The position numbers and the translations under genes were made by a program. From Neocallimastix sp. 'constans' (lineage: Eukaryota), in NCBI GenBank assembly GCA_050613775.1, contig JBODTK010000010.1:930001-994000 (forward strand): 64,000 nucleotides of DNA, written 5' to 3'. Below are positions 24,851 through 42,781 of the stretch, piece by piece. The notes under the pieces are model-generated. The model saw only the letters and a program-made list of their open reading frames with translations. It made no database searches and had not been told where the DNA came from. How positions within the stretch are numbered: the stretch's first letter is position 1; each line of letters begins with the position of its first letter.

Positions 24851-25574
24851 GGAATATTACATCATTTAACCATTATAAAAGAAAGTTAACTCTATTTGTT
24901 TAATATGGAAGATAATTTTTTTGCTTTCCTTAGAAATAATAAATATTAAGCCCACTTAAAATATTTATGTTTTTTGAAATATTTTATATTTATGATATTA
25001 ATACTATTATGAATAAATACTTTTTGAACAATAACATCAAAGAAGCAAGAACAAAAAAAAAAAATAAATTTAAAAAAAAATAATTATTTTCCTTTTTTTT
25101 TTTTTTTATTATTGTTTTTCATTTATGATAGTTTATTTCTATAAAATTATCTATTCACAAATTAATTAAATGAATCAAATATTAATAGATTATTTTATAT
25201 GTAATAATAATAATTACGAAACTTGCTTTAATAATAGTAATAATAATGAAAACTTGTTACTTGCTTTAATAATAATAATAATAATAATAAAAACTTTTTT
25301 TAATCATGTTGACTTTAAATAAAGTTTTTTTTTTTTTTTTTAAATATAGAAATAGATCATCATCAATGGACTTTAAAAAAAAAAAATTCTATATTCTTTT
25401 TGAGTTACTTCGTAAGTGAAAATAAGTACTAGTCTCCAAAATGGTTGAAATTAAATTATTGTACTACAAAATTTAATTTTTATCTGTAATTCTGTAATTA
25501 GTATTATATAATATGAATATAATATATTTTTTATTGTATATTTTTTAATGTTAATTTTTTAATTTTGTTTTTTT

Positions 25575-25809
25575 TTATCTTATTATTTTATTTATATTTA
25601 TATTACTATATTATTAATTATAATTAAATACTATTATGTAACTTACAAAGTATAAAAGAAAGATGTAAAAATCTATCTTTTATGTTCTTTGTAAGGTTAT
25701 TGTAAAATTATCTTAATAGTAATATATTAATATATTATAGATATTTCATTATGTTTAAAGGGATGCATTTCACAAAATGTGGCTTAAATTTTTTTTAAAA
25801 AATAAACAT

Positions 25810-25842
<33 letters not shown>

Positions 25843-26695
25843 TAATATTAAATAAAAAAAAAAAATATGTTAAAAATGTTTTATTATAACTCTTTTATAT
25901 TTCATCTTAATTTCTATCAAATTTTAATTTTATTTTATTATTATAATATTTAAAAAATAAAAAAATTATATAATACTGATATTGATATTAATAATAAAAA
26001 TAACTATATAAAATATTGATATTCTATATATATAATTATTTATTATTCAGAATAAATAATATATAATTTTTTAATATAACAGTAATATGAAGATATGAAA
26101 TATATATGAAAATATTTTTTTTTACCGCTTAATATTTGAAATATTTATATTTATTCTGAATAAAAAATTAGTGCTAATTATTCAATTTTTTTTAATTAGA
26201 AAAATAAAATATTATTTATTTATTATTTATTTATTTATTTTATTTATTAATTATTTATTATATTTATTATTTGTTATTATTTATTATTTATTATTTATTT
26301 ATTTAAAAATATTTTATAATAAAATATTTTAAGACTTATTTCAAAAATGATTTTTATTATTTATTTAATTATTTATTTAATTATTTATTCATTGATTAAA
26401 AAAATTATATAATGTGGCAATTAATAAGTATTTTTAAGCCACATTGCGAAATGATACACATTCTTTTAAAATCAAATTAATTTATCAATTTTAATTATTA
26501 AAGTTTATCATAAATAAATTTTTATTAAACTAAACCATTTAAATATATTTATTATTATTATATATCTATATAGTATATTACTATATAGACATATTTGTAA
26601 AATTTTTAATAAAACATATTATTTTATTTAGTAAAAATTTTAATAAAACATATTTTATTTAAATTTACAACATAAAATAGATCGAAATCTTAACA
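25575..26695 (+). mobile_element. Old, 5'-eroded LTR related to the chromovirus LTRs, interrupted by a MITE
   Basis: Contains TATGTAACTTACAAAGTATAAAAGAAAGATGTAAAAATCTATCTTTTATGTTCTTTGTAAGGTTATTGTA, shared with 36186-36255. Segment 26466-26695 matches the reverse complement of 26701-26906 and ends AAATCTTAACA. Left boundary is approximate. Confidence 0.75.
25759..26465. mobile_element. Non-autonomous TIR element (MITE) at a TTAA site, Kolobok/T2-like termini
   Basis: Left end TTAA|AGGGATGCATTTCACAAAATGTGGCTTAAA and right end TTTAAGCCACATTGCGAAATG..CATTCTT|TTAA. Inner inverted pair TTATTCAGAATAAATA / TATTTATTCTGAATAA. Absent from the homologous LTR at 26701-27412. Confidence 0.65.
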
Positions 26696-26700
26696 ATTTA

Positions 26701-27412
26701 TGTTAAGATTTTGATATAATTTATAATTTAAATGTAAATAAAATAATATGTTTTAATAAAAATATTCACTAAGTCGATATGTCTATATAGTAATATACTA
26801 TATAGATATATAATAATAATAATAAATATTTAAATGTTTAGTTTAATGAAAATTTATTTATAATAAACTTTGATAATTAGAATTATCAAATTAATTTGAT
26901 TTTAAATTTATTGATTTTATTTAATAATAAAATATCTATAATATATTACTATTAAGGTAATTTTACAATAACCTTACAAAGAACATAAAAGATAGATTTT
27001 TACATCTTTCTTTTATACTTTGTAAGTTACATAATAATAATATTTAATTATAGGATAGTAATAATATAGTAATATAAATAATAATAAAATATAAGGATAA
27101 ATTTAATTATATAATTAATTTGAATAATTGAATTTAATATAGATATGTTGTAAACATATATAAAAACATAATATAAATAAAATACACGTGACGTCAAATG
27201 TATCATTGAAATTAATTGTTAATATAAACCTTATTTATTAATATTCTCAGAATTATTAGGCCTAAGATAACCCTTTAAATATTAAACAAGAATTTATATT
27301 AATTATTAATTATTTAAATATATATATTATTTATAATTAAATAAATAATATTTTTAATTATTGAAATGTAAATAACTGAAATTGAGATTTCAATTCAGTT
27401 ATAATTTCAACA
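26701..27412 (-). mobile_element. Solo LTR (712 bp) of the chromovirus family, with 5-bp TSD ATTTA
   Basis: TG...CA termini and ATTTA at both 26696-26700 and 27413-27417. The reverse complement aligns to the first ~500 nt of LTR 35754-36489 and then diverges. Confidence 0.92.
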
Positions 27413-27933
27413 ATTTACCTTAATTATATGACAAATACGAATTTTTCTAGAGGTTTCATTTTTTAACTGGTAGACTCGGGGTTGACACTTAGATATTTAA
27501 AATCAAGCAGGGGGGGACGGGTATTACCCTGCTTTGATTTTAAATAAAAAAAAAAAAATAATTCTAATTTTTGTGTTTTTAAATATTTTTAATTGCTATA
27601 TTAATAAATTTTTTTTTTGTAAATAATTGTATATATTTTTTTATTTAAGTAAAGATAAACGAAAGGGGTTATTAGCTTGAAAGAATAGTGAACATTCCAA
27701 CTAGTTTATTAATTTATATTTATTCTAGTGTCCAGGAGGGGGAGTACGGGTGTATATAGCAAAATTAAATATACACTAGCCGGAAACGTCTCACTAGAGA
27801 TATAAATTACTTAAATATATAATTTTAATTGTAAATAAATAAATAAATAAATAAAAATATAGCAATTAAATAATTAATAAAACAATTTTTTTTTTATTTT
27901 ATTTTTTTTTTAAAAGTGTGTTTTTTTTTTAAA

Positions 27934-28169
27934 ATGAGTTCAATTAATTTTAAAGATTTAAAAAAAGAACTTAAGGATATTGAAAAAATATCCAAAGAAA
28001 ATTTAGATGTTAAAACTTGGAAGTCTGATTTAGAGCTTTGGATAAAGCTTGAACATGTTGAAAACTCCAAGATTATATTTTATGCCTGTGTTTTAACCTC
28101 AATTGGTGAAACCAGGAAAGTCATCCAAGAATTAATGGATGATAATGATAAAGATGATGATAGTGATAG

Positions 28170-28209
<40 letters not shown>

Positions 28210-28914
28210 AATGATGATGATGATGATGATAATTATAAGGATATTGATGATGAAGATGAGGATGATGATAATGAAGAAGATAAAGAAATTGATAAAAAGA
28301 ATAAGGCTTATCCTTCCCTTAATAGAATTGTAAAAGCTATAGAAGAATTTTATGGCATTAGGGAGGATCAAAATAATTTATTAAGAGAGCTACGTGCTCT
28401 AAGAATTAAGAGAAATGAAAGAATCAAAGATTTTAATATTAAGTATAAAACTTTATATTTAAAATTAAATAAAAAGAAAAGAAGTCAGATAAGTGTTTTA
28501 GATTACATAGACTCCATTGAAAACAATGTTGAAGCCTGGAAACGTCTAACCTTATTTGATAACATTTCTCTGTCAAAAGCCTTTAAAATTGCTGAAAAAG
28601 CAGATAGGTTAAATTATATGGGTAGTAATCAAAGAAGACATCCTTCTACCCCTTCACCTTCTGCAAATACATCTTCTTTTAGTAATAGAGTTAATTTTCA
28701 TCCTCCTATTAAAAATAAATTAGAACAAAAAGTTAATATTAAACCTAAAGAAGATAATGACATAGAGGAATTAACAAGAAAAATGAGAAGTTTAACAATA
28801 AAGGCTTGTTATTTCTGTAAAGAACCAGGTCATTATCAAAACAATTGCCCAAAGTTGAGAGCAATTGTTGAGAAAAATAGGAAGGAAATTAGAAACAATA
28901 AACGTTTAAATTGA
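27934..28914 (+). CDS. gag: Gag with poly-Asp tract and CCHC zinc knuckle
   Basis: First ATG at 27934. (GAT)n acidic tract, and CYFCKEPGHYQNNC near the C-terminus. Confidence 0.9.
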
Positions 28915-28943
28915 GTAATGGGATAAGAAGCTCTCCCATACTT
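28905..28943 (+). promoter_or_regulatory. Predicted -1 ribosomal frameshift signal
   Basis: T TTA AAT heptamer in gag phase immediately before TGA. The pol frame (-1) opens at 28902. Downstream stem ATGGGA/TCCCAT. Confidence 0.75.
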
Positions 28944-31900
28944 AATAAAGCAGCTTCACTTAAATATCAAAAAGAAATTAAAAATTCTCGTCTTTCTAAT
29001 ATTGAAGAAACTCCTGCTAATAAAAGGGTGGTTAATAAAAAGAAAGTTGATTATTTAGTAGGAGCATCTAAACGTAAAATTTATGATGTTAATAATGATG
29101 AAGGTAGTGCAGAGAAAAGGATTCATAAGTCGTTGAAGGAGAATCCTAAACCTATAATAACTCCTGCATTACGAAAACAGAAAGAACGAGAAGTAAAAGA
29201 AAATAATATAAGTAATAAAATTGTTAAACAAATTAAACCATCTATTCTAGCTCAACCACGAATTGAAAAAGAAAAAGAGATTGAAAGACAAATTCGTGAT
29301 AATGAAAGAGCTAGTAATAGTAATACTAATTATAGTAATAATCATAGTAATGATAATAGTAATGATAATATTAATAATAATTCATTAGTGAATGATGAAG
29401 TTATTATAAATAATGTAAATAATGATAAAAGAAAGAATAAAAATTTAATGAAAGAAAATAATGATAATAATAAAAGTATTGTGAAGGAGAATAATAAAGT
29501 AATTGATTTAACAAAGGTGTTAATTAGTAAAGATAAAGATACTCAAAAAGAAAATAAAAGTGCTAGAGTATCTAGGAAAATTAAGATGCAATCGGGGGAA
29601 GAAGAATATGATATTCTTAAAGATTTAAATTCTGCCCATTGCAATATTACTTTTGGACAGTTATTGGATGCTGCTCCAAAATTAAGATATAAGGTGTCAC
29701 AGGGTATTAAATTGGATAGGGACCAATCTAATATCTCTGGGGTGTTGGATAATGTGTCAGCCACGACTGTGGTCGTTAATAACATAGATCACACTTATAA
29801 AAGTAAAGGTAACGAACCATGTGAAGAGGATATTGCCATGGTTGATGTTACAGTTGAAGGTGTTTCGGGGAAGGCTTTAATTGATTCATGTAGTAATTTA
29901 AGTATAATTACTCAACAATTTTTAGATAAGCTTCCGTCCGAATATGAACCTATTGATATTAGTCGTGGCAGAATTAGGTTGGCAACTAAGAATGATGATT
30001 ACTCGGAAGGTTATATCATTCGGGTGCCAGTAAAGATTAATAATCTTGTAGTAATGGTTAATTGTAGAATAGTAGAAAAGGAGGATCCTTTTTACGATAT
30101 TCTAATTAACTTAAAAACCCAAATTGATTATAATTTGTTTATCCACCCCATTTTATATAGTTTGTGTCAAATTACTCCTGAGGGAGTAATTGACGTTATT
30201 GCACCTATTAATAATGATTATGAAGATGAAGAAAAGTTGTTGTGTATGATTAAGGCTTTGGATGAAGATTCCAAAAAGAATGATTTAAAGAAAATTGAAG
30301 GATTATCTCCAAAGCAATATATTCATCATGAAATTTTCCTAAATACTTTAAATGAAAAATATAAAGATGAAATAATTAAAATTCTGGAGGAGAACTTAGA
30401 AATAGTTGCTACTTCTTCAGAAGAATTAACACCTTCTGATCTTCCTCCACATAAGATTAATTTAATTCCTGGTGCGAAACCAGTTAAGCAAAGGTGCTAT
30501 AGATTAGTTAAATTTAAGTCGGATATACTTAAGGAGGAATTAATTAAATTAATTAATAAGAAATTAATTGAACCTTCTTGTTCCGAATGGTCATCGCCAA
30601 TAGTGTTAGTACCGAAGAAGAACGGTAAATGGCGATTATGTATTGATTATCGTAAGGTTAATGATTTAACAGTTAAAGATTCTTATTCATTACCTTACAT
30701 TGATGAGATATTTGATAGTTTAGATGGGGCACAAATTTTTACAACAATGGATCTTTATTCTGGTTATCATCAAATTTTGATGGATGAGGAAAGTGTAGAA
30801 ATTACCACCTTCACCACAAAATTTGGTAACTACCAATTCAAGGTTATGCCTTTTGGTTTAACCGGAGCCCCAGCTACATTTCAAAGGGAAATGAATAGGA
30901 TTCTTTTCCCATTTATAGGAAAGTTTGTTTTTAACTTTATAGATGATATTTTAATATACTCTAAGAGTATAGAAGAACATATAAGCCACATTAGGCAAGT
31001 GTTGGAAGTATTTCGCCAACACAAATTAAAAATTAACATTGAAAAATGTGCCTTTATGCAGACTGAAGTAGAAGTCTTAGGTCATAAGGCATCAGTGAAA
31101 GGTTTAAGTCCCCAGGATAGCAAAATTAAGGCTATCAAGGAGTGGGTAACACCTGTTGATGTTCATGAATTACGATCTTTTCTTGGAGCAGTAGGATATT
31201 ATAGAAACTTTATTGATAAATATGCCCAAATCTCTGCTCCTTTATGTAAATTATTAAGAAAGAATGTTAAATATAAATGGAATAATGAACATCAACAAAG
31301 TTTTGATCTGTTAAAAGAAAAATTAATAAATGCTCCAATTTTAAAATATCCAAGTTTTAATCAAAGGTTTATAATTAGAACGGATGCTTCCTATGAAGGT
31401 ATTGGAGGAGTATTACTCCAAGAAGATTTAGAAACCAAAAAGGAACATCCAGTTCATTATATAAGTAGAAGTTTAAGTAAAGCCGAGAAAAATTATGGCA
31501 TTACTGACTTGGAAGGAGCTGCATTAATTTATTGTATTACTAAGTTGAAATCTTATATATTAGGAAATCCTAATAAAACAGTAGTAATAACAGATCATAA
31601 ACCTTTAATCAGTTTCTTTAAAAATAAGGAACCTAATAATGCTAGGCAAGCAAGGTGGTACTTAACTGTTAGTACCCTTGGTGTTGAAATTCAATATCAA
31701 ATGGGTAAGAAAAATGTGTTAGCCGATGCATTATCTAGGATGAAGAAAAGAGATGATTCTGTGGTATTGGCAACTAAGTTAACTTCAAAGGAAGAAGAAG
31801 AGTTGCTTTCTAAAACTATTAAAGACTTTATAAATGAAAAATTTGTTACGATAGATGGTGAAGATTACTTTGTTGATGGTAATGACTATCGTAAATTAAT

Positions 31901-32960
31901 TACGGATCAAACGGAAAGAGTAAAACTTATTTTAGAAGCCCATAAGATAGGTCATGAGGGATATTATAAGACTTATCAAAGGCTTCGTAAAAGTTTTTAT
32001 TGGAATAATATGGTGATGGATATTAAAAGAGTGGTGCAAAGTTGTGACAAGTGTCAGTTGAATAGGTCACAACCATATCCAGAACCTACAGAAAATATTC
32101 CAACTAAAGTAGAAGGTCCTTTTATACATTTGGGTTTAGATATTATTGGACCTTTGATTAAAACTAAAAATAATAATCAATATATAATGGTTGTGGTGGA
32201 TTACTTCACCAAATGGGTTGAAGCAGAACCCACGGAAAATATAACATCACAGGATGTGATTAAGTTCTTAATTAATGTGTTTGCTCGTCATGGTGTTCCA
32301 CAGGTAATAACAACTGACAATGGTGTTCAGTTCACCTCGGACATGACGAAAATATTTTTAGATCTCTATGATGTATATGTGAAGTTTATTTCCACATATC
32401 ATCCTGAAAGTAATGGACTTACGGAAAACCGTAATAAAGAGATCGGCAAGTTATTGAGGTTGTTGGGTTCTAAGAATAAGGATTGGGATGAAGTTTTACC
32501 ATCCGCCTTATGGGCTCTTAGAACTACCAAAAATAAGGTAACAAAACATTCAAGTTTTGAGTTGGTTTATGGTAGGGAAGATCAGCAGCCTTTTGACATT
32601 GCTGCTAGACCTACCAAGGATATTAATAAGTCATCGGATGAAGTGTTGTTAGAAAAATTTATAAATCATTACCGATGGACTTTAGAAGCAGCCGAAAATG
32701 TTAAAAATGCAAATAAGTGTTGGGCTGCTAGAAGAGAGGAAAAGAATAGTTTGAATGAAGGAAAAAGAATTAGGGAAGGTGATTTAGTTCTAGTTAGAAA
32801 TTTTTCAAGAACTAAACTAGAACCTTATTTTGTTGGTCCTCTTAAAGTTATAAAAAAACAATTTAATACGGTTACCTTGGCTGATCCAAATTCTGGAATT
32901 CAAATGAATAGGAATGTTCATTTGAAGAATATAGTCAAGTATAACTCAGCTTCGATGTAG
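28911..32960 (+). CDS. pol: Pol polyprotein: aspartic protease, reverse transcriptase, RNase H, DDE integrase (no chromodomain)
   Basis: ALIDSCS; WRLCIDYRKVN, MPFGLTGAPATFQ, FIDDILI; TDAS...TDHKPL...ADALSR; H-x3-H...C-x2-C, LDIIGP, TDNG, SNGLTE; GPL motif. Ty3/Gypsy domain order. Confidence 0.96.
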   Translation: MSNGIRSSPILNKAASLKYQKEIKNSRLSNIEETPANKRVVNKKKVDYLVGASKRKIYDVNNDEGSAEKRIHKSLKENPKPIITPALRKQKEREVKENNISNKIVKQIKPSILAQPRIEKEKEIERQIRDNERASNSNTNYSNNHSNDNSNDNINNNSLVNDEVIINNVNNDKRKNKNLMKENNDNNKSIVKENNKVIDLTKVLISKDKDTQKENKSARVSRKIKMQSGEEEYDILKDLNSAHCNITFGQLLDAAPKLRYKVSQGIKLDRDQSNISGVLDNVSATTVVVNNIDHTYKSKGNEPCEEDIAMVDVTVEGVSGKALIDSCSNLSIITQQFLDKLPSEYEPIDISRGRIRLATKNDDYSEGYIIRVPVKINNLVVMVNCRIVEKEDPFYDILINLKTQIDYNLFIHPILYSLCQITPEGVIDVIAPINNDYEDEEKLLCMIKALDEDSKKNDLKKIEGLSPKQYIHHEIFLNTLNEKYKDEIIKILEENLEIVATSSEELTPSDLPPHKINLIPGAKPVKQRCYRLVKFKSDILKEELIKLINKKLIEPSCSEWSSPIVLVPKKNGKWRLCIDYRKVNDLTVKDSYSLPYIDEIFDSLDGAQIFTTMDLYSGYHQILMDEESVEITTFTTKFGNYQFKVMPFGLTGAPATFQREMNRILFPFIGKFVFNFIDDILIYSKSIEEHISHIRQVLEVFRQHKLKINIEKCAFMQTEVEVLGHKASVKGLSPQDSKIKAIKEWVTPVDVHELRSFLGAVGYYRNFIDKYAQISAPLCKLLRKNVKYKWNNEHQQSFDLLKEKLINAPILKYPSFNQRFIIRTDASYEGIGGVLLQEDLETKKEHPVHYISRSLSKAEKNYGITDLEGAALIYCITKLKSYILGNPNKTVVITDHKPLISFFKNKEPNNARQARWYLTVSTLGVEIQYQMGKKNVLADALSRMKKRDDSVVLATKLTSKEEEELLSKTIKDFINEKFVTIDGEDYFVDGNDYRKLITDQTERVKLILEAHKIGHEGYYKTYQRLRKSFYWNNMVMDIKRVVQSCDKCQLNRSQPYPEPTENIPTKVEGPFIHLGLDIIGPLIKTKNNNQYIMVVVDYFTKWVEAEPTENITSQDVIKFLINVFARHGVPQVITTDNGVQFTSDMTKIFLDLYDVYVKFISTYHPESNGLTENRNKEIGKLLRLLGSKNKDWDEVLPSALWALRTTKNKVTKHSSFELVYGREDQQPFDIAARPTKDINKSSDEVLLEKFINHYRWTLEAAENVKNANKCWAARREEKNSLNEGKRIREGDLVLVRNFSRTKLEPYFVGPLKVIKKQFNTVTLADPNSGIQMNRNVHLKNIVKYNSASM

Positions 32961-32970
32961 CTTGAGTTTT

Positions 32971-32978
32971 AGAGGGGG
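32971..32978 (+). promoter_or_regulatory. Polypurine tract
   Basis: AGAGGGGG, 10 nt after the pol stop and 5 nt before the TG that starts the palindrome. Same layout as GGGAGGG-CAT-TG at 42036. Confidence 0.8.
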
Positions 32979-32983
32979 CATCA

Positions 32984-34820
32984 TGGTAAAGAATGAATTA
33001 ATAACCTTTATTTTATTATTAATAATTCTTTACTAAATTGTACTTTCCTATATTCTTCATAACCTAAACCTCATTGTAAATTTAATTTATTTTGATATAA
33101 ATTAATTTTAACTTGTAAATAATGTAAATAAATTTTAATTAATTACTTTATTGTTATATTATTAAATATATGTATATATTAAAATACAATTGTAAATATT
33201 AAAATTATGCTTTTAAGATACTAAATTATTAAAACTATTAATTAAATATTATTATAAAAATTATTATAAAATTATTAAAATTATTAATTAAATATTATTC
33301 TAAAAATTATTATAAATTATTAATATTATAAAATTATTAAAATTATTAAATATTATTATAAAAATTTATTTATTATAACTATTAAATATTATTATAAAAT
33401 TATTAAGATTATTAATTAAATTTATTATTAAAAATTATTATTAAAAATTATTACTTATTATAAAAATTATTATTTAAATATTATCAAATTTATTAATTAA
33501 ATATTATAAAAATTTTATTTTATTTTGAAAATAATTACAAGTATTATTTAAAATAATTAAAGATTATTAAATTTATTATATTAATCTTTAAAAACAATTT
33601 ATTTAACTTAAAAAAATATCAAAGAAAATAGTAAAAACTATTTTCTATATATTTATTTTATAATTATTTTTAATTAAATTATATTTGAATATTATATTAT
33701 TATATTTATAAAAATTAAAACAAAAATGAATTATTGATATAAAATTAATTCAATAATTCTATAAAATTACTTAAATTATAAACAATTAATTATACTTTAA
33801 ATTTATAAAAAAATATAAATATTGTAACAATTTCTTAAAAATTAAATATGTGTACTTTAAATAATAAAATTTTATATTAATAAAAAAAAAATAATTCTTT
33901 ATTAAAAGTTATTTATTTTTTTATTAATATAAAATTTTATTATTTAAAGTACACATATTTAATTTTTAAGAAATTGTTACAATATTTATATTTTTTTATA
34001 AATTTAAAGTATAATTAATTGTTTATAATTTAAGTAATTTTATAGAATTATTGAATTAATTTTATATCAATAATTCATTTTTGTTTTAATTTTTATAAAT
34101 ATAATAATATAATATTCAAATATAATTTAATTAAAAATAATTATAAAATAAATATATAGAAAATAGTTTTTACTATTTTCTTTGATATTTTTTTAAGTTA
34201 AATAAATTGTTTTTAAAGATTAATATAATAAATTTAATAATCTTTAATTATTTTAAATAATACTTGTAATTATTTTCAAAATAAAATAAAATTTTTATAA
34301 TATTTAATTAATAAATTTGATAATATTTAAATAATAATTTTTATAATAAGTAATAATTTTTAATAATAATTTTTAATAATAAATTTAATTAATAATCTTA
34401 ATAATTTTATAATAATATTTAATAGTTATAATAAATAAATTTTTATAATAATATTTAATAATTTTAATAATTTTATAATATTAATAATTTATAATAATTT
34501 TTAGAATAATATTTAATTAATAATTTTAATAATTTTATAATAATTTTTATAATAATATTTAATTAATAGTTTTAATAATTTAGTATCTTAAAAGCATAAT
34601 TTTAATATTTACAATTGTATTTTAATATATACATATATTTAATAATATAACAATAAAGTAATTAATTAAAATTTATTTACATTATTTACAAGTTAAAATT
34701 AATTTATATCAAAATAAATTAAATTTACAATGAGGTTTAGGTTATGAAGAATATAGGAAAGTACAATTTAGTAAAGAATTATTAATAATAAAATAAAGGT
34801 TATTAATTCATTCTTTACCA
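32984..34820. repeat. Near-perfect 1837-bp palindrome (arms about 905 bp, imperfect centre about 33888-33916)
   Basis: TGGTAAAGAATGAATTAATAACC... versus ...GGTTATTAATTCATTCTTTACCA. Arms were exact reverse complements in all stretches checked by eye, with mismatches only next to the centre at about 33902. Confidence 0.96.
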
Positions 34821-35753
34821 TAACTGATTTATACCTAATATTCTTAATCTACAAAAATTAAATTTTGCAGAAGTGAATAAAAGGATAAATACTGAATAAA
34901 AATTGATTTAAGGAATTTAAAAAATAAATATGTTTTATTATTAAACACAAAAATGTTTTATTAAAAAAAAATTTATTTTTATTTTAATATTAATCTTTAT
35001 TTATTTAATAATTAATTTTGTTTAAATTAATAAAATAATTGTTAAAAACTAATAAAATAATAAAATGAAATATTTATTATTTATACTAATTTATTTTAAA
35101 TTTTAATAATAAAATTGATTATTAATAACTAATAAAATATATAATAATTTATCAAAATAATTAATAATCATAAAAATTGATTATTAAAAACTAATAAAAT
35201 ATCTATAATAATTTATTAAATAATTAATAATAAAGAATAATTTATAAGAAATATTTACATGTTTTTATATTTTTCTTTGATTTTAAACTATTTACATTAA
35301 AAATAATAAAATTAATAAAAGAGAAATAAAGAATAATTTATTATTAAATTAAACAATATTTACAATTAAAATGTTGATAAAGATGAGTTTTAAAATGTTA
35401 TTTTAATTACAATTTGTTTATAAAAGTTGAGTTATAAAATAAATAAAATAATCATTATTTTAAATAAAAGTAACTTAAAAAATTATTTAACTATTTAATT
35501 TTAATTTTGCGTTGTTTATAAGTTTGTTTATTTGTTGTTTATAATTTATTAAATATGTTTATTATTTTGTTTATTTGTTGTTTTAGAAAAATATTATTTA
35601 TTAATTTATTTTAGTTTTTAATTAAAATTATTAATGATTAATAATTTATTATTACTTTATTTTAATTATTTTTATTTAATTAATTTTTCTTAAATATGGA
35701 TTTAATTTTTTTTTTTTAGAATGGATTAATTTTTGGGTTAAGTTAGACAGAAT

Positions 35754-36489
35754 TGTTGAAATTATAACTGAATTGAAATCTCAATTTCAGTTATTTACAT
35801 TTCAATAGTTAACAAATATTATTTATTTAATTATAAATAATATATATATTTAAATAATTAATAATTAATATAAATTCTTATTTAATATTTAAGGAATTAT
35901 CTTAGGCCTAATAATTCTGAGAATATTAGTAAATAAGATTTATATTAATAATTTCAATTATCTACATATGACGTCACATGTATTTATTTATATTATGTTT
36001 ATATATATGTTTACATCATATATATTAACTACTATTTTTAATTATTCAAATTAATTATATAATTATAAATTAAATTTATTTAGTTATATTAAATATTTTA
36101 AACATATCGATATTGTTATTATCTTAATATTTTATTAATATTCATATTACTATATTATTAATATCTTATAATTAAATATTATTATTATGTAACTTACAAA
36201 GTATAAAAGAAAGATGTAAAAATCTATCTTTTATGTTCTTTGTAAGGTTATTGTACTTACAATAATTATATACTAATAATTCAATAAATAAATATTTTCA
36301 TAAATCCTTCAAAGAAATTATTATTTAAAATATTCTTAGATATTAAGTGTTTAAATAACTTAACTATTTATCTTATATTATTTTTATATTATTATTAATT
36401 AATTATTGTTGGATTATTAATATATAATTCAACATATTAACCTAGTAACGTTATTAATCATAAAACTATTTTATATCTTAATTTTAACA
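35754..36489 (+). repeat. 5' LTR
   Basis: Direct repeat of 42046-42781. TGACGTCA at 35969 and TATAAAA at 36202. Confidence 0.96.
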
Positions 36490-36499
36490 ATAACCTTAC
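36487..36499 (+). promoter_or_regulatory. Self-priming primer-binding site
   Basis: ACAATAACCTTAC is the exact reverse complement of GTAAGGTTATTGT (36242-36254), about 35 nt downstream of the LTR TATA box. There is no TGG-type tRNA PBS at the LTR end. Confidence 0.85.
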
Positions 36500-36523
36500 C
36501 CTAGTTTTGGTTACTACTTTAAT

Positions 36524-37600
36524 ATGTCTTTTTACAATAATGTATGGGCTGACATTGCTCCAATGTCAGAAGTTAATAAATTAAGGTCTGACGCCCAAGT
36601 TACTGTATCCGAATTGGCTTCTTCTGTTAATGATAGTTTTTTATTAAAAGAAGATTTTAATGAATATAACAAGGACTTACAAAAAAAACTTTATACACTT
36701 TACAAAGATAATAAAAATATTATTAATCAATTATCTAATTTAACAAAAATTTTAGATGAAAAGTTAAATATAAATATTGCTACAAATGATATTCCTTCTA
36801 CTAGTCAAACACAAGAGGATAATGTATCTACCACTACTAGACGTGATGATGACAATGATGTTATTATGAGGAATGCTTTTTCAAACCGTTTACAACAAGT
36901 TCCTGAACCTGGATTTTTCTCTGGAGATACTAAAGAAACTGATCTATTCTGTCAACTTTGTGAAGATACTTTTAAAACATATCCAAATTCAGAAGCTACA
37001 GAAGATATCAAAATTAACTTTATTAAATCCCGTTTGAGGGATGGCGCTCGTAATTGGTATCTAGCTACGTACAAGGATACTAACCCAAAAACTCTTTCTG
37101 AATTGACTACTGAATTAAGAAAAGCATTTTCCAACGTTGCAAGCAAAAAATTAGCTAAGATTCAATTAATAAAATTGAAACATAATTATGGGAAAATAAA
37201 TGATTATATTGAACAATTTAGAACTCTTTCGAATGGTCTTGGATTCAGTGAAGAAGCCTTAGTTTTAATTTTTTATAATGGGTTACATTCAAAATTCCAA
37301 GAAGTAATTGAAGAAATGGAAGAATTCCCTGTTGATCTTGGTACTATTTATACTAAATGTATTTTACTTGAAAATACATTAAAAACAAAAAATCAAATAA
37401 AAACAAATAATGGTAATTCAAAACTTTTTAGAAGCAGTAATAATAAACATTCAAAACACGTTAGTACCCATATTAATCATGATAAAAATTATAATTCTAA
37501 TAACAATTATAATAACAAAAGTAATTATAATAATAATTACAATAATAACAATTATAATAGTAATAAAACTAGTAGCAATAATAATAAAACAAAAAACTAA
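36524..37600 (+). CDS. gag: Gag (retrotransposon capsid)
   Basis: 358 aa with PEPGFFSGD, KINFIKSRLRDGARNWY, INDYIEQFR, IFYNGLH and an Asn-rich tail. Confidence 0.92.
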   Translation: MSFYNNVWADIAPMSEVNKLRSDAQVTVSELASSVNDSFLLKEDFNEYNKDLQKKLYTLYKDNKNIINQLSNLTKILDEKLNINIATNDIPSTSQTQEDNVSTTTRRDDDNDVIMRNAFSNRLQQVPEPGFFSGDTKETDLFCQLCEDTFKTYPNSEATEDIKINFIKSRLRDGARNWYLATYKDTNPKTLSELTTELRKAFSNVASKKLAKIQLIKLKHNYGKINDYIEQFRTLSNGLGFSEEALVLIFYNGLHSKFQEVIEEMEEFPVDLGTIYTKCILLENTLKTKNQIKTNNGNSKLFRSSNNKHSKHVSTHINHDKNYNSNNNYNNKSNYNNNYNNNNYNSNKTSSNNNKTKN

Positions 37601-40600
37601 ACAATGGACTTCAACAGAAGTCCAATATAATAAAAAACACAAGAATTTTTCATTATAATTTTCCTACATTTAATAATGTAGTAAATAAAAAATTACCTTC
37701 AACTTTCCTTTTATTTGATACATATATTCCAACAACATTTTCAAATAATATAAAAAATATTAAAAATGATAATAATAAATTAAAAACTGAATCGATGTTA
37801 GATTCAGGCTCCTTCTGTAATTTTATTACAGAAGAATTAGTAAAAACATTAAAATTGAAAAAATATAATTTAAAATCAAAAATTTTAGTCAAAGGAATTT
37901 CTGGTGATACAACCCAGATAAAGAATTATGTTTGGCTAAAATTTCAAATCAAAATTAATGAAAATAAAAGAGTTTATTTTAAAAATTTCAGAGAAAAATT
38001 TTTAATTTCGAATTGTATCCCAACAAAACTACTTTTTGGAAACCAATTTATGAGGAAGTTTAATATTCATTATGACTATGATAAAAACTTCCTATATTCT
38101 TATTTAAATTCTCACTTTTATAACAAAATTAATAAAAATACTAATAAAAATCCACAATATTATTCTCGGTTTAATTCAGTGATAAAAAGATTTTTAAAAA
38201 ATTATTTTTTAAAACATAAATTCATAAAAAAATTTAATTATACAAAAAATTCAAAAATTTTCAAAAATTTTAATCAAAATAAATTAAATTTTAAACTTAA
38301 TAAATATAAAAAATTTCTTCATAAAAAATTTAATTTTTTAACCAATAAAATATTTTTTAAATTAAAAAACAATCACCAAAATAAAAAATATAAAATTAAT
38401 AATAAATTTAACTATAATTATTTAATTTATTCATTTTTAACAAATAAAGAAAATTATGAAGAAGATATTGAAGATATAAAAATCGAAAATATTCCGCTTC
38501 AATATCGAGATTTGGCTGTTGTATTTAGTAAGAAAGAAGCAGATAAACTACCGCCACATCGTTTAACTGACTGTAAAATAGTTTTAGAAAAGGATGCTTC
38601 TCTTCATTACGGACCTATCTACCCATTATCTGAAGAAGAAAATAAAGTTTTAAAAGAATATATAGAAGAAAATTTAAAGAAGGGATTTATTAGACCTTCT
38701 GAATCTCCAGCTGGTTATCCTGTCTTATTTCAAAAAAAGAAAGATGGTTCTTTAAGATTGTGTGTGGATTACAAAAAGTTAAACGCTGTTACCATTAGAA
38801 ATTCATATCCTCTTCCACTTATTAATGATATTATTGAAAAGGTTAAAGGTGCAAAATATTTCACAAAATTAGATCTAAGATCTGCCTATAACCTAATTCG
38901 TATAAAAGAGGGGGATGAATATAAAACAGCTTTTCGAACTAAATATGGTCATTACGAATATCTCGTAATGCCTTTTGGGTTGAAAAATGCCCCAGCCACT
39001 TTTCAATCATTTATTAATTCTGTACTCAGACCTTATTTGGAAAAAAGTGTTATTTTATATTTGGATGATATTTTAATTTATTCTGAGGATTTGGAAGAAC
39101 ATCACAAACAAGTAAGAAATGTATTACAAACTTTAATTAATAATAATTTATACGCAAAATTAGAAAAATGTGAATTCGATAAAGAAAAAGTTGAATTCCT
39201 AGGTTACATTTTATCTGGTGATGGTGTATCTACTGACCCAAAGAAAATTAAATCTATAGATGAGTGGCCAACTCCGAAAAATATTAAAGAAGTACAACGA
39301 TTTTTAGGCTTATGTAATTACTATAGGAGATTTGTAAAAAATTTTGCAAAAATAGCTAAGCCTCTCCATAATTTAACAAGAAAAAATACAAAATTTATTT
39401 GGGATACAAATTGTGGAAATTCATTTAAATTATTAAAAAGTAAATTAACTACTTCTCCAGTACTGCATCACCCAGATGTAACTAAACCATTCATAGTAGA
39501 ATGTGATGCAAGTAACTATGCTATAGGTGCTGTTTTATCTCAGAAAGATGAAAATAATAAATTACATCCTGTTGCTTACTTTTCAAGAAGTTTACAAGGC
39601 TCCGAAATAAATTATACCATTACAGAAAAAGAGTTATTAGCTATTAGAGATTCTTTCTTAACTTGGCGACATCTTTTACTTGGTGCAAAACATAAAATTA
39701 CTGTCTATACTGATCATAGAAATTTAATCTATACTTTAGGAGGAAAAGTTGGTAATCAAAGACAGCATAGATGGCACTTATTCTTTCAGGAATATGATTT
39801 CCAACTTATATATAGACAAGGAACAAAAAATGGGAAACCAGATAGTCTTTCAAGAAGACCTGACTATATGAAGAATAACGAAGATATTAAACCAGAAAAT
39901 ATATTAGATATTAAAAATGTAAAAGAAGTTCCCTGTTTTATAGGAATTATGAGTAATTTACTAGAAAAAATTATTGATGCTATTAAAGAAGATGCTACTG
40001 CTGAAGATATTAAATTATACTTTAGTGAAAACAATGTTAAAAATAATTATGCTTATAAACCATTTAGGAAAATGGAAAGATTTAAAATAAAAGATAATAT
40101 TATATTATATAACAATTTAATTTATATTCCTGAATCACTTAGATTAGAAATTTTAGAAAAATATCATGAAAAACCCACTTCTGGACATCTTGGTATAAGA
40201 AGAACTTTAGAACTAATTACAAGAAACTTTTGGTGGCCAAAAATACATGAAGATGTTACAAGTTATGTTAATTCTTGTGAATGTTGTGCAAGAAACAAGG
40301 TTAATAGACATAGGAAATATGGTCTTTTACAACCTTTAGATACTCCCGATAGACCTTGGAAGTCTATCGAAATTGATTTCCTATGTGGTCTTCCTTATTC
40401 TAAAGGATACACCGTTATTATGGTAGTTGTTGATTGTTTCTCTAAGATGATACATTTAATTCCATTTAAACAAATACCTGATGCCAAACAAACTGCCAAA
40501 GCTTTCATTACAAATATATTTAAACTACACGGATTGCCTTGTGATATGTATACAGATAGAGGATCTCAATTTACAAGTGCTCTTTGGAAAGAAGTAATGG

Positions 40601-41427
40601 AGTATTTAAACATTAAATCAAAAATCGCTACAACTGACCATCATGAAACAGTTGGTCAAGTTGAAAGATGTAATTCTTTTATTGAACAATATTTAAGAGC
40701 TTACTCAAGATCATATTATCATGATGATTGGATTGAATGGATTCACCTTGCTGAATTTGTTTATAATAACTCCATTAATGAATCTACAAAAGAAACACCC
40801 TTCTTTATTAATTATGGGTTTCATCCATCTATGGATGAATTTTTCTTATTACCTGATATTGATACTAATAATAAAATTATTAAGGACTTAAGTATGAACT
40901 TTAATCATATTAAAGATGTTTTATTAAGGTCAAAAGAACTATATAAAATACACGCAGATAAAAAGAGAATGCCACCTCCAATATTTAAAGAAAATGATTT
41001 AGTTTGGATACAAGCTCCTCCATCACTAAATATCGAAGATAGTTCAAAGTTAGCTCCTTGTAAATATGGACCATATAAAGTAATAGATGTTCTGAATAAT
41101 CATAATTATAAAATAGATATTAAAAGGTCACCTTTTCCAAAACATCATCCTATATTCCATGTTTCGGAGTTAGAACCTTTTATTCCAACGCCTCAAAAGT
41201 TTTTAAAAAGAAGAACTCATGATGAATCTGTTAATGATATAATTGAAATCTCAGGATTTAGAACTAATTATAAAAAGAATCAATATGAATACAGAATCAG
41301 GTATAAATATAGAACTGCTTACAATTGGGTTCCTTCAGACGAAGTTGAAAATAACCCCCGAAATCAAAATATTTATTTACAATATTTACAAAATGGAAGA
41401 AAACCTATTTCAATAGCTTATAACTAA
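37588..41427 (+). CDS. pol: Pol: protease, RT, RNase H, integrase, C-terminal chromodomain
   Basis: The frame is stop-free from 37588 (the ORF track starts at the internal Met 37795). Motifs: LDSGS, LRLCVDYKKLN, YLDDILI, CDAS, HHCC, DRGSQF, GPY, and a chromodomain-like tail YEYRIRYKYRTAYNWVPSDEV. Confidence 0.95.
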   Translation, partial: NKKLNNGLQQKSNIIKNTRIFHYNFPTFNNVVNKKLPSTFLLFDTYIPTTFSNNIKNIKNDNNKLKTESMLDSGSFCNFITEELVKTLKLKKYNLKSKILVKGISGDTTQIKNYVWLKFQIKINENKRVYFKNFREKFLISNCIPTKLLFGNQFMRKFNIHYDYDKNFLYSYLNSHFYNKINKNTNKNPQYYSRFNSVIKRFLKNYFLKHKFIKKFNYTKNSKIFKNFNQNKLNFKLNKYKKFLHKKFNFLTNKIFFKLKNNHQNKKYKINNKFNYNYLIYSFLTNKENYEEDIEDIKIENIPLQYRDLAVVFSKKEADKLPPHRLTDCKIVLEKDASLHYGPIYPLSEEENKVLKEYIEENLKKGFIRPSESPAGYPVLFQKKKDGSLRLCVDYKKLNAVTIRNSYPLPLINDIIEKVKGAKYFTKLDLRSAYNLIRIKEGDEYKTAFRTKYGHYEYLVMPFGLKNAPATFQSFINSVLRPYLEKSVILYLDDILIYSEDLEEHHKQVRNVLQTLINNNLYAKLEKCEFDKEKVEFLGYILSGDGVSTDPKKIKSIDEWPTPKNIKEVQRFLGLCNYYRRFVKNFAKIAKPLHNLTRKNTKFIWDTNCGNSFKLLKSKLTTSPVLHHPDVTKPFIVECDASNYAIGAVLSQKDENNKLHPVAYFSRSLQGSEINYTITEKELLAIRDSFLTWRHLLLGAKHKITVYTDHRNLIYTLGGKVGNQRQHRWHLFFQEYDFQLIYRQGTKNGKPDSLSRRPDYMKNNEDIKPENILDIKNVKEVPCFIGIMSNLLEKIIDAIKEDATAEDIKLYFSENNVKNNYAYKPFRKMERFKIKDNIILYNNLIYIPESLRLEILEKYHEKPTSGHLGIRRTLELITRNFWWPKIHEDVTSYVNSCECCARNKVNRHRKYGLLQPLDTPDRPWKSIEIDFLCGLPYSKGYTVIMVVVDCFSKMIHLIPFKQIPDAKQTAKAFITNIFKLHGLPCDMYTDRGSQFTSALWKEVMEYLNIKSKIATTDHHETVGQVERCNSFIEQYLRAYSRSYYHDDWIEWIHLAEFVYNNSINESTKETPFFINYGFHPSMDEFFLLPDIDTNNKIIKDLSMNFNHIKDVLLRSKELYKIHADKKRMPPPIFKENDLVWIQAPPSLNIEDSSKLAPCKYGPYKVIDVLNNHNYKIDIKRSPFPKHHPIFHVSELEPFIPTPQKFLKRRTHDESVNDIIEISGFRTNYKKNQYEYRIRYKYRTAYNWVPSDEVENNPRNQNIYLQYLQNGRKPISIAYN
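37591..37623 (+). promoter_or_regulatory. Predicted -1 ribosomal frameshift signal
   Basis: A AAA AAC in gag phase just before TAA, with hairpin GGACTT-CAACAG-AAGTCC 8 nt downstream. The -1 frame is open from 37588 into pol. Confidence 0.82.
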
Positions 41428-41448
41428 AATGATAATAATAATAATATT

Positions 41449-41504
<56 letters not shown>

Positions 41505-42045
41505 GAAATTTTATTTTTATTAATTTGTTTTTAAATTTTATTTTATTATTATCAATTTTTCAGTCAAATTTCAATTTCAAAATTTCGAAATTTTCAAAAT
41601 TTTCAAAATTCAAAAACATAGCTATGTTACACTTACATCTATCAATTTATAATCTAATTTTATTCATAAATTCATTAATTATTATAATTTTCAATTTTTA
41701 AAGTTAATGCATAAAATTAAAAAGTTAATTGAAATTAAAATTTCAAAATTTCAATTTCAAAAATTTTTAATCAAAAACATTTAAAAATGGTACCATCATA
41801 TTCTTAAACATCAATTTTCATAATAAAATTTTAATTTTATTAAATTTTAGAGATTTCAAAATTTCAATGAAATGGCCACTTATAAAGGGTTTCCTTTAAA
41901 AATTTAAAAGGACTCAAGTGACCTTCCTCTTTCATAAATTAAAAATTTTTAATTTAAGAAATTCCAAAAAATTTTTTAACAAAAATTTAATCCTCCTTAT
42001 CGTTACACAAAAATCGTCTTGAATCCGATTTTTATGGGAGGGCAT

Positions 42046-42781
42046 TGTTGAAATTATAACTGAATTGAAATCTCAATTTCAGTTATTTACATTTCAATAG
42101 TTAACAAATATTATTTATTTAATTATAAATAATATATATATTTAAATAATTAATAATTAATATAAATTCTTATTTAATATTTAAGGAATTATCTTAGGCC
42201 TAATAATTCTGAGAATATTAGTAAATAAGATTTATATTAATAATTTCAATTATCTACATATGACGTCACATGTATTTATTTATATTATGTTTATATATAT
42301 GTTTACATCATATATATTAACTACTATTTTTAATTATTCAAATTAATTATATAATTATAAATTAAATTTATTTAGTTATATTAAATATTTTAAACATATC
42401 GATATTGTTATTATCTTAATATTTTATTAATATTCATATTACTATATTATTAATATCTTATAATTAAATATTATTATTATGTAACTTACAAAGTATAAAA
42501 GAAAGATGTAAAAATCTATCTTTTATGTTCTTTGTAAGGTTATTGTACTTACAATAATTATATACTAATAATTCAATAAATAAATATTTTCATAAATCCT
42601 TCAAAGAAATTATTATTTAAAATATTCTTAGATATTAAGTGTTTAAATAACTTAACTATTTATCTTATATTATTTTTATATTATTATTAATTAATTATTG
42701 TTGGATTATTAATATATAATTCAACATATTAACCTAGTAACGTTATTAATCATAAAACTATTTTATATCTTAATTTTAACA
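42046..42781 (+). repeat. 3' LTR
   Basis: Direct repeat of 35754-36489. Confidence 0.96.

What the first reader, a model, noticed from the sequence alone, without database searches (positions are those of the whole stretch)
32971..34820. The palindrome sits exactly where a 3' LTR should be: possible fold-back priming with flip/flop of the centre
Seen: the inverted repeat begins at the TG five nt after the PPT and ends in CA. The arms (~905 bp) are exact complements where checked, while the central ~30 nt are asymmetric (AAAAAATAATTCTTT-ATT-AAAAGTTATTTATTT). Each arm also begins with a small hairpin (GTAAAGAAT...ATTCTTTAC). Inference (speculative): a transcript ending at 34820 would fold back so that its ACCA-3' end pairs at 32984, positioned to prime minus-strand synthesis across pol and gag without tRNA. 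PPT-primed copying around the hairpin would regenerate the palindrome with the centre inverted and keep the arms identical. It would also produce long dsRNA, a potential siRNA source.
Basis: partly seen in the sequence, partly recalled or inferred. Interest (0 to 1): 0.85.

Follow-up and report, generated by a model that had tools for sequence, protein, structure and literature searches.

The report
Palindromic end-repeat of fungal retrotransposon
A near-perfect 1.8-kb palindrome at the tail of a gut-fungus jumping gene is that element's own end-repeat joined to its mirror image, most likely a one-off accident of reverse transcription that then got integrated, not a new way of replicating.

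Summary
Window 32983-34821 is a palindrome with 906-nt perfect arms and a 27-nt asymmetric centre. It starts at the TG five bases after the polypurine tract of an intact Ty3/gypsy gag-pol and ends in CA.

The arms are not foreign DNA. Their first 30 nt match the post-PPT sequence of a ~70%-identical relative. Near their inner end sits a promoter-like motif that two relatives carry 187-188 nt upstream of their tRNA-type primer-binding site. So each arm is U3 plus the first ~90-100 nt after the TATA motif, cut off about 90 nt short of a full LTR.

This copy has no 5' LTR. It begins at the PBS-like TGGTAGACTCGGGG (27468), and TAAC flanks both ends, a candidate 4-bp target duplication.

My best reading, which is inferred, is that PPT-primed plus-strand DNA snapped back at an A10/T7 run. 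It copied itself to its own 5' end and never reached the PBS, so no second jump occurred. The PBS...U3' molecule was then integrated as a dead copy.

Three more distant relatives (50-68% identical pol) look canonical, and this copy lacks an upstream promoter. No other genomic copy or bridging long read could be examined, so an assembly artefact is not excluded.

The parts
27464..27467 (+). TAAC, candidate left copy of a 4-bp target-site duplication
   Evidence: The same 4-mer follows the right end at 34821-34824. TAAC occurs once in 27413-27933, at this position. Its background frequency is 0.0047.
27468..27481 (+). PBS-like TGGTAGACTCGGGG; proposed left end of the integrated DNA
   Evidence: It lies in the same position as the PBS TGGTGGAGATATCGG of L002, L005 and L007. 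No complement of it exists elsewhere in the element.
27495..27545 (+). GC-rich stem-loop in the 466-nt leader
   Evidence: The folded stretch 27468-27545 has an MFE of -14.7 kcal/mol, z -5.9, with 0 of 200 shuffles as good; this stem-loop is its paired part.
27934..28914 (+). gag ORF (326 aa from the ATG) with a zinc knuckle
   Evidence: Pfam zf-CCHC, E 6.5e-5. ORF listed.
28911..32960 (+). pol ORF (1349 aa), in the -1 frame relative to gag: RT, RNase H, integrase
   Evidence: Pfam RVT_1 1.1e-38, RT_RNaseH_2 2.2e-31, Integrase_H2C2 3.4e-17, rve 2.7e-11. Frames. The ORF is intact and about 70% identical to 13 aligned relatives.
32971..32978 (+). polypurine tract AGAGGGGG, followed by CATCA
   Evidence: Read from the sequence. 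A G-rich tract plus CATC(A/T)TG is present in 4 of 6 relatives printed.
32984..33888 (+). left arm: U3 plus the start of R of the element's 3' LTR
   Evidence: Perfect complement of 33916-34820. Its first 30 nt are homologous to L002 after its PPT, z 7.5, 0 of 500 shuffles.
32986..33031 (+). hairpin at the start of U3 (mirrored in the right arm)
   Evidence: -9.6 kcal/mol, z -5.6. L003 and L002 also fold at this place, z -4.3 and -3.7.
33814..33827 (+). TATAAATATTGTAA promoter-type motif (mirror copy at 33977-33990 on the - strand)
   Evidence: The regex TATAAATA.?TTGTAA hits only these two places in 64 kb. It hits once each in L002 and L005, 187 and 188 nt upstream of their PBS.
33879..33891 (+). 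AATAAA followed by an A10 run (likely polyadenylation signal; left half of the snap-back stem)
   Evidence: AATAAA lies 65 nt after the TATA motif here, and 69-81 nt after it in L002 and L005.
33889..33915 (.). asymmetric centre of the palindrome (axis at 33902)
   Evidence: All six mismatched pairs lie here. DNA 33872-33922 folds with its 3' T-run paired to the A-run, -7.1 kcal/mol, z -1.5.
33916..34820 (-). right arm: inverted copy of U3 plus the start of R, ending at the U3 terminus ...CTTTACCA
   Evidence: Pairing stops one base beyond the CA.
34821..34824 (+). TAAC, candidate right copy of the target-site duplication

Best explanation
The palindrome is the 3' LTR (U3 plus the start of R) of an intact Ty3/gypsy element joined to its own inverted copy. 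It was likely made when PPT-primed plus-strand DNA snapped back on itself during reverse transcription.

Shown:
- The arms start with the family's U3 terminus.
- They carry the family's TATA-type motif 88 nt before the axis.
- They stop about 90-100 nt short of where relatives reach their PBS.
- The right arm ends exactly at the U3 terminus.
- This copy has no 5' LTR.
- TAAC flanks both the PBS-like left end and the right arm.

Inferred sequence of events:
1. Minus-strand DNA was made as usual and ended at the PBS.
2. Plus-strand DNA started at the PPT and copied U3 and about 100 nt past the TATA motif.
3. Its T-rich 3' end (33916-33922) then paired with the A10 run 25 nt upstream.
4. RT copied the nascent strand back to its own 5' end, which is U3 base 1. 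This explains why the second arm stops there.
5. Because U5-PBS was never copied, no plus-strand transfer could occur and no 5' LTR was built.
6. The resulting DNA, PBS...pol-PPT-U3-R'-loop-R'-U3', has 3' ends ...GTCTACCA and ...CTTTACCA. Integrase would have joined these to the target, giving the 4-bp TAAC duplication.

The copy would be dead on arrival, since it has no promoter upstream of gag. Its two convergent LTR promoters could produce hairpin or antisense RNA.
For: Structure.

Arm is the family's LTR:
- Its first 30 nt match L002 after the PPT (z 7.5, 0 of 500 shuffles).
- PPT plus TG.TAA(A)GAAT is seen in 4 of 6 relatives printed.
- The TATA-type motif occurs only in the two arms of the window, and once each in L002 and L005, 187 and 188 nt before their PBS.
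- AATAAA lies 65-81 nt after that motif in all three sequences.
- The axis is only 88 nt after the motif, so the LTR is truncated inside or at the end of R.

No third copy of the arm exists in 64 kb.

Canonical relatives:
- L007 has PPT, a 476-nt TG...CA LTR, TT, then the PBS, in a circularly permuted contig.
- The PBS is conserved in L002, L005 and L007.

Left end and duplication:
- TAAC occurs once in 521 nt, directly before the PBS-like site, and again directly after the right arm. Background frequency is 0.0047, and two random 4-mers match with P 0.024.
- I had placed the PBS from homology before I saw the duplication (note).

Snap-back stem: it folds with a paired 3' end.

Fold-back self-priming by RT is an established dead-end reaction for HIV-1 minus-strand strong-stop DNA (PMC6088434, passages read).

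The ORFs are intact and the arms match at 906 of 906 positions, which fits a recent single event.
Against: - No other genomic copy, empty site or long read could be examined, because no genome is held.
- A 4-bp match can be chance (P about 0.005-0.02), and the neighbouring element 2 makes a 5-bp duplication.
- The 52-55 nt upstream of the PBS could instead be a U5 remnant. The alignment test was uninformative even between the relatives themselves.
- Beyond its first ~30 nt and the TATA motif, the arm is not significantly similar to the relatives' 3' regions (z 2.2, -0.6, 1.0, -0.1).
- The route from a snap-back hairpin to a fully double-stranded integrated copy needs further steps that are not documented for any element I could find in print.
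- The axis lies near the expected polyadenylation site, which would fit a variant based on the RNA 3' end equally well.
Confidence: 0.52

Rival explanations
1. This was a canonical two-LTR copy that suffered two separate accidents. Its 5' LTR was destroyed by the reversed element-2-type LTR that ends at 27412, plus a deletion, leaving about 50 nt of U5. Independently, its 3' LTR became palindromic, either by snap-back of a re-primed plus strand or by later DNA repair.
For: A complete terminus of a reversed LTR2-like sequence lies 55 nt upstream of the PBS. Nested insertions are common. A CA followed by a T-rich spacer precedes the PBS here and also in L002, L005 and L007.
Against: The rest of the 5' LTR is nowhere in the window, so an extra deletion is needed. 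The TAAC match at the PBS and at the right arm would then be coincidence, with P about 0.005-0.02. The U5 homology test gave nothing.
Confidence: 0.15
2. Assembly artefact: a fold-back chimeric long read joined an LTR in + orientation to an LTR of another, reversed copy. Polishing then left an imperfect centre.
For: The two DNA runs labelled with an organism (X1, X3) gave only short, error-bearing contigs, as noisy long reads would. No listed contig bridges the axis with 31 nt or more on both sides. A junction supported only by chimeric reads would stay unpolished over roughly the width of the observed centre.
Against: The palindrome is internal, with host genes on both sides of the window. 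The right arm stops at the LTR terminus, and its flank repeats the TAAC found at the left end, which two unrelated loci would not do. The left copy independently lacks a 5' LTR. Contigs from three DNA runs lie over the centre bin and over 33915 (tables 2 and 4). That last point is weak, because depths from contigs cannot be compared.
Confidence: 0.08
3. Post-integration DNA event: a break or a stalled fork in the 3' LTR folded back at the A-run/T-run, and cellular polymerases made the inverted duplication.
For: Short inverted repeats are known to seed palindromes after breaks and at forks (titles and abstracts of PMC4689423, PMC10766183 and PMC7999016 in the listing). A second, imperfect inverted pair of LTR2-like fragments lies close by.
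Against: Cellular fold-back synthesis has no reason to stop at U3 base 1. It would run on into the PPT and pol. The model also explains neither the missing 5' LTR nor the TAAC pair.
Confidence: 0.07
4. One reading: the palindrome is a regular part of this lineage. Transcripts end at 34820, fold back, and prime minus-strand synthesis without tRNA, and the centre flips between generations.
For: The geometry is correct...TTTACCA-3' pairs with 32984-32991, so extension would copy the PPT and pol. The arms are identical. Pol proteins 99% identical exist in other samples (P0001, 39 member sequences). RNA libraries of 5 studies hold 0.45-0.69 of the element's sampled words.
Against: A PBS-like site is retained. 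The arms carry a promoter motif and AATAAA in LTR order. The three more distant relatives that could be read at their ends look canonical. There is no promoter motif upstream of gag in this copy. The 3' regions of 5 relatives hold only short AT-rich inverted pairs, although most of those contigs end before the point where a centre would lie.
Confidence: 0.04
5. An independent foldback transposon inserted just after the PPT and replaced the LTR.
For: The arms contain AT-rich internal sub-repeats, like foldback elements (families D2-D4).
Against: The arm starts with the family's own U3 terminus and holds the family's TATA motif. No free-standing copy exists in the window.
Confidence: 0.02

Closest known systems
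Self-priming of HIV-1 minus-strand strong-stop DNA (cTAR hairpin; Guo et al. 1997, as reviewed in PMC6088434)
   Same: A nascent retroviral DNA 3' end folds on itself and RT extends it. This gives a fold-back product that can no longer make the next strand transfer (passages read).
   Different: That case involves the minus strand and R-U5, and was seen in vitro. Here the strand would be the PPT-primed plus strand carrying U3-R, and the product appears to have been integrated into a chromosome.
Tf1/Tf2 self-priming chromoviruses of fission yeast
   Same: A Ty3/gypsy-type element in which a fold-back in its own nucleic acid replaces a step of canonical priming. The review PMC5371799 notes that Tf1 is tRNA-independent.
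   Different: In Tf1 the RNA 5' end pairs with the PBS, and all copies have normal LTRs. Here no complement of the PBS exists in the element, the PBS looks tRNA-type, and the fold-back is at the 3' LTR of one copy.
LTR hairpin loci from inverted or nested insertions (Mu killer in maize; antisense nested EVD in Arabidopsis, PMC11624286)
   Same: Two copies of a transposon's terminal sequence in inverted orientation could be transcribed into hairpin or double-stranded RNA and silence active copies in trans (passages read).
   Different: Those arise by rearrangement or nested insertion, with kilobases between the arms. Here the arms are 21-27 nt apart, share one breakpoint, and end at the LTR terminus. 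No small-RNA data were examined.
DIRS-like retrotransposons and foldback (FB) transposons
   Same: Both are mobile elements with long inverted repeats.
   Different: As I recall, DIRS elements use a tyrosine recombinase and have inverted repeats at opposite ends; this element encodes a DDE integrase and has adjacent arms. FB elements lack gag-pol, and their arms are not an LTR.

Membership tests
Ty3/gypsy (Metaviridae) LTR retrotransposon | pol domain order RT - RNase H - integrase | tested here: met
   RVT_1 at 567-726, RT_RNaseH at 790-920, Integrase_H2C2 at 999-1053, rve at 1077-1165.
Ty3/gypsy (Metaviridae) LTR retrotransposon | gag with a CCHC zinc knuckle | tested here: met
   zf-CCHC, E 6.5e-5, residues 297-313.
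Ty3/gypsy (Metaviridae) LTR retrotransposon | PPT just before the 3' repeat, and a PBS after the 5' repeat | tested here: met
   AGAGGGGG lies 5 nt before the TG. TGGTAGACTCGGGG corresponds to the relatives' TGGTGGAGATATCGG. The primer tRNA itself was not identified.
Ty3/gypsy (Metaviridae) LTR retrotransposon | two direct long terminal repeats | tested here: not met
   This copy has no 5' copy of the arm. Its 3' repeat is duplicated in inverted orientation. Relative L007 does show PPT-LTR-PBS. This is therefore a defective structural variant, not a different family.
Foldback transposon | inverted arms unrelated to any retroelement, occurring without gag-pol and with their own target duplication | tested here: not met
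   The arm begins with the family's U3 terminus and carries its TATA motif. No separate copy exists in the window. The rest of the genome was not available.
DIRS-like retrotransposon | tyrosine recombinase in place of a DDE integrase | tested here: not met
   The integrase zinc-binding and rve core domains are present, and there was no recombinase hit.
Tf1-type self-priming element | a stretch at the RNA 5' end complementary to the PBS | tested here: not met
   No match to the reverse complement of the PBS-like site, with up to 2 mismatches, anywhere in the element. The transcription start is not known.
Hairpin-RNA silencer locus (Mu killer type) | transcription through both arms, and small RNAs mapping to them | not testable with these tools
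   RNA contigs cannot show ends or strands. No small-RNA data were available. Anaerobic gut fungi encode Dicer and Argonaute but no clear RdRP (PMC5796279, passages read).

The most novel reading that the evidence does not exclude
This gypsy lineage may carry the hairpin as a working part. In that case a copy needs no 5' LTR, because a fold-back at its palindromic 3' end primes cDNA synthesis and is regenerated each cycle with the centre flipped, much as hairpin telomeres are. That would be a new replication mode for an integrase-bearing retrotransposon.
Probability: 0.04. Interest if true: 0.85.

Novelty: new variant of a known kind. Interest (0 to 1): 0.38.

Why it matters
If the reading holds, this locus is a natural, integrated record of a failed plus-strand transfer. 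The left end would be frozen at the PBS, the right end would be a snap-back copy of U3-R, and both would have been joined by integrase. Fold-back self-priming is known mainly from test-tube work on retroviral strong-stop DNA. An integrated example would show that such dead-end products can reach the chromosome, and that a PBS end resembling the U3 end (TGGTA...) can serve integrase.

A second consequence also needs testing. The copy places two LTR promoters face to face over 0.9-kb inverted arms, in a fungal group reported to have Dicer and Argonaute but no clear RdRP (PMC5796279). In such a host, hairpin loci would be one of the few sources of double-stranded RNA against the active family.

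For annotation, the locus warns that LTR finders relying on direct repeats will miss or mis-bound copies like this one.

Tried and rejected
- Whole genome: none is held, so counting copies and scoring the centre orientation was impossible.
The second, on 33600-34204, returned thousands of short contigs from four runs, and none listed bridges the axis. Depths cannot be compared and the loose ends were A/T-run noise. One loose end (TATTACCCTGCTTTGATTTTA at 33879) is simply the element's own leader, which shares AATA(A)nTAATTCT with the centre. This gives no verdict for or against the palindrome.
- Metagenome relatives: 10 loci were found, but the contigs of the closest ones end before a centre could be seen. 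L002 ends in an (AAT)n run and L005 in low-complexity sequence.
- Other collections: the viral contig scan found no relative. The genome-contig scan found only 3 distant pol fragments in MAGs, and searching those two MAGs with the centre gave AT-rich noise.
- Alignment of the 52 nt upstream of the PBS with the relatives' U5 ends was not above shuffles, even between the relatives themselves. It is therefore uninformative.
- Whole-arm similarity to the relatives' 3' regions was not significant, and a control LTR scored higher. I therefore rely only on the first 30 nt and on the TATA motif.
- Rfam found no family in 25000-33240.
- Earlier notes of this scan: nothing on this genome, and the sequence look-up found nothing related.
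- Literature searches found no description of an integrated LTR element with a snap-back 3' LTR. This covers only the held open-access library. The older papers I recall on hairpin DNAs of cauliflower mosaic virus and on defective retroviral DNA with inverted repeats were not seen.
- Nested antisense insertion followed by solo-LTR formation is rejected. It would leave about 100 nt of U5'-R' between the arms and R-U5 after the right arm, and neither is present.

Full report
**What is there**

The window is extremely AT-rich, with 10-34% G+C in 2-kb steps. It carries ordinary eukaryotic genes: PEPCK, EF-2, three Hsp20 paralogues and ankyrin arrays. For PEPCK, the nearest named relatives are early-diverging fungi at 61-64% identity, and the closer unnamed ones (72-99%) come from metagenomes. 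The only named pol hit above 50% identity is an Orpinomyces protein, 59% identical over 27% of the query. All runs that hold the element are labelled feces metagenome or carry one of two coded organism names. I therefore take the host to be an early-diverging fungus of the herbivore gut, probably an anaerobic gut fungus. This is an inference.

Positions 27934-32960 encode an intact Ty3/gypsy gag (zinc knuckle) and pol (RT, RNase H, integrase), with pol in the -1 frame relative to gag. A second, unrelated gypsy element lies at 35754-42781. It has identical 736-bp LTRs and a 5-bp duplication, AGAAT.

**Checking the observation**

The inverted repeat is real and essentially as described. The symmetry axis is at 33902, and the arms 32983-33888 and 33916-34821 are perfect over 906 nt. 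One mismatched pair lies at 33889/33915 and five more lie inside 33892-33912. Pairing ends abruptly at 32982/34822. The TG at 32984 comes five bases after the polypurine tract AGAGGGGG, and the CA ends at 34820. The small hairpin at the start of each arm is well above shuffles, z -5.6. Nothing comparable exists elsewhere in the 64 kb.

**What the arms are**

A search with pol found 39 proteins. One is 99% identical (P0001, 39 member sequences), and the next 21 listed (P0002-P0022) are mostly 67-77% identical and come from gut metagenomes. A scan of the metagenome contigs with an alignment of 14 of these proteins gave 10 loci.

- In 4 of the 6 loci whose pol ends I printed (L001, L002, L003, L005), a G-rich tract, CATC(A/T) and TG.TAA(A)GAAT follow the stop codon, as in the window.
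- The first 30 nt of the arm match L002 at z 7.5, with 0 of 500 shuffles as good.
- Beyond that, the arms are not significantly similar to the relatives' 3' regions, as expected for fast-evolving AT-rich U3.
- One motif stands out. TATAAATA.?TTGTAA occurs in the whole window only in the two arms (33814 on + and 33990 on -). It occurs once each in L002 and L005, 187 and 188 nt upstream of a conserved tRNA-type PBS, TGGTGGAGATATCGG.
- An AATAAA follows that motif by 65 nt in the window and by 69-81 nt in the two relatives.

Each arm is therefore the family's U3 plus the first part of the transcribed repeat. The palindrome's axis is only 88 nt after the TATA motif, about 90-100 nt short of where a full LTR would end. 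The arms are neither a foreign foldback element nor two whole LTRs.

**Are the relatives palindromic?**

None of the 8 loci tested has an inverted repeat of 60 nt or more. The 3' regions of 5 loci hold only short AT-rich pairs.

L007 (50% identical pol) is a circularly permuted contig in which pol, a PPT, a 476-nt TG...CA LTR with TGATAT/ATATCA ends, TT and the PBS follow one another. That is the signature of ordinary direct LTRs.

L002 and L005 begin at or just before the TATA motif and end inside U3, which fits collapsed direct LTRs. Their contigs stop in simple repeats, so this is not proof. The 99% relative could not be fetched.

**The 5' side of this copy**

No third copy of the arm exists in the window, so there is no 5' LTR. 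The PBS-like TGGTAGACTCGGGG sits at 27468. Only 55 nt separate it from the complete terminus of a reversed LTR of the element-2 family, at 27412.

The four bases before the PBS-like site, TAAC, are the same as the four bases after the right arm (34821-34824). TAAC occurs once in the 521 nt between 27413 and 27933, at exactly this place. Its background frequency is 0.0047, and two random 4-mers match with P 0.024. I had fixed the PBS from homology before noticing this (note). The two outer 3' ends would read ...GTCTACCA and ...CTTTACCA, so the PBS end mimics the U3 end that integrase normally uses.

I read 27468-34820 as one integrated molecule with a 4-bp target duplication. This remains an inference from a short match.

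**Mechanism (inferred)**

In the canonical cycle the minus strand ends at the PBS, and the plus strand starts at the PPT. The plus strand must copy U3-R-U5-PBS before it can jump (Ty3 cycle in PMC5371799).

Here the nascent plus strand would have paused about 100 nt after the TATA motif. Its T-rich end (33916-33922; L002 has a T8 run at a similar offset, about 95 nt after its TATA motif) would have paired with the A10 run at 33882-33891. DNA 33872-33922 folds that way, at -7.1 kcal/mol, which is not unusual for its composition (z -1.5). RT would then have copied the strand back to its own 5' end.

That 5' end is U3 base 1, the PPT cleavage site, which is why the second arm stops precisely there. 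The single mismatch at 33915 sits in the primer-stem part, as expected if everything from 33916 outward is a fresh copy.

Without a PBS copy the second jump fails, so no 5' LTR is made and the left end stays at the PBS. Fold-back self-priming of nascent retroviral DNA is established for HIV-1 minus-strand strong-stop DNA, where it gives dead-end products that nucleocapsid normally suppresses (PMC6088434).

How the hairpin became the end of a full duplex is not resolved. It may, for example, have primed a second minus strand on the co-packaged RNA. My searches found no printed description of such an integrated product.

**Rivals**

- *Canonical copy with two separate accidents.* This needs an extra deletion and treats TAAC as chance (0.15).
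- *Assembly artefact from a fold-back chimeric read.* This cannot be excluded without long reads. The one successful read-laying run gave no bridging contig. However, an artefact would not give matching flanks or a missing 5' LTR (0.08).
- *Cellular fold-back repair.* It has no reason to stop at U3 base 1 (0.07).
It remains possible at a few percent.
- *Foreign foldback transposon.* Rejected, because the arms are the family's own U3.

**Likely consequences**

This copy has intact ORFs but no upstream LTR promoter, so it would be dead on arrival. Its two arms place two LTR promoters face to face. Read-through from either would give hairpin RNA, or RNA antisense to U3 and pol.

Inverted LTR arrangements are discussed as triggers of transposon silencing in plants (PMC11624286). 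Anaerobic gut fungi are reported to have Dicer and Argonaute but no clear RdRP (PMC5796279). Whether this locus makes small RNAs is untested.

**Verdict**

The fold-back origin is likely, and the proposed replication strategy is unlikely. The most probable reading is a one-off, recently integrated snap-back product of reverse transcription. That makes it a structural variant of a known kind of element, of moderate interest mainly as a natural record of a failed strand transfer.

Noticed in passing
window 35754-42781; tRNA at 42847-42920: A second, unrelated Ty3/gypsy element is intact, with gag and a 1210-aa pol. Its 736-bp LTRs are 100% identical and its 5-bp duplication is AGAAT. It sits 65 bp upstream of a tRNA-Ala(CGC) gene in the same orientation, which may indicate Pol III-directed targeting as in Ty3.
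   Followed up: partly
window 25574-25752 and 26924-27101; 26964-27412: Fragments of an LTR 90-96% identical to element 2's LTR form an imperfect inverted pair (~91%), about 1.17 kb apart. Both arms reach their inner end near LTR position ~525, which is about 75 nt after a TATAAA at 449 and next to an AATAAA at 530. This resembles the place where element 1's palindrome turns. The spacer holds its own 130-nt inverted repeat (26465-26594 / 26777-26906).
   Followed up: partly
window 32986-33031; L003 4826-4853; L002 6438-6500: A hairpin at the very start of U3, just after the PPT, is present in the window (z -5.6) and in relatives (z -4.3 and -3.7). The stem sequences and registers differ, which suggests a conserved structural element beside the plus-strand start site.
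   Followed up: partly
window 27468-27933; L002 1160-1290; L005 1275-1490: The leaders carry GC-rich hairpins in otherwise AT-rich DNA. The window has a stem of about 17 bp at 27495-27545 and a second G-rich motif near 27727-27790. The relatives have 3-5 tandem copies of a GTCGAAAAGGATTTTCGA-type hairpin. The window's leader (466 nt) is far shorter than those of L002 and L005 (about 1225 and 1386 nt).
   Followed up: no
window 27468-27481 versus L002 191, L005 285, L007 1400: The window's PBS-like site implies a primer ending ...GAGTCTACCA, with an A1:U72-type acceptor as in eukaryotic initiator tRNA (recalled). The three relatives share a different PBS implying ...TATCTCCACCA. A primer switch within one family may have occurred.
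   Followed up: no
window 1252-1869 (+), 11532-12143 (-), 22853-23476 (-); 13890-21000: Three Hsp20 paralogues form long inverted repeats (434 nt at 94%; 211 nt at 90%) around an array of at least 48 copies of a 99-nt unit that encodes ankyrin repeats.
   Followed up: no
window 48722-50356 (-): An ORF of 544 aa has a reverse-transcriptase domain but no integrase, so it is probably a non-LTR retrotransposon. It lies next to the EF-2 gene.
   Followed up: no
L011, L012 (MAG labelled Methanosphaera stadtmanae) and L013 (MAG labelled Erysipelotrichaceae): Prokaryotic metagenome-assembled genomes contain short contigs encoding gypsy pol proteins 38-46% identical to this one. This is most likely AT-rich fungal DNA binned by mistake.
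   Followed up: no
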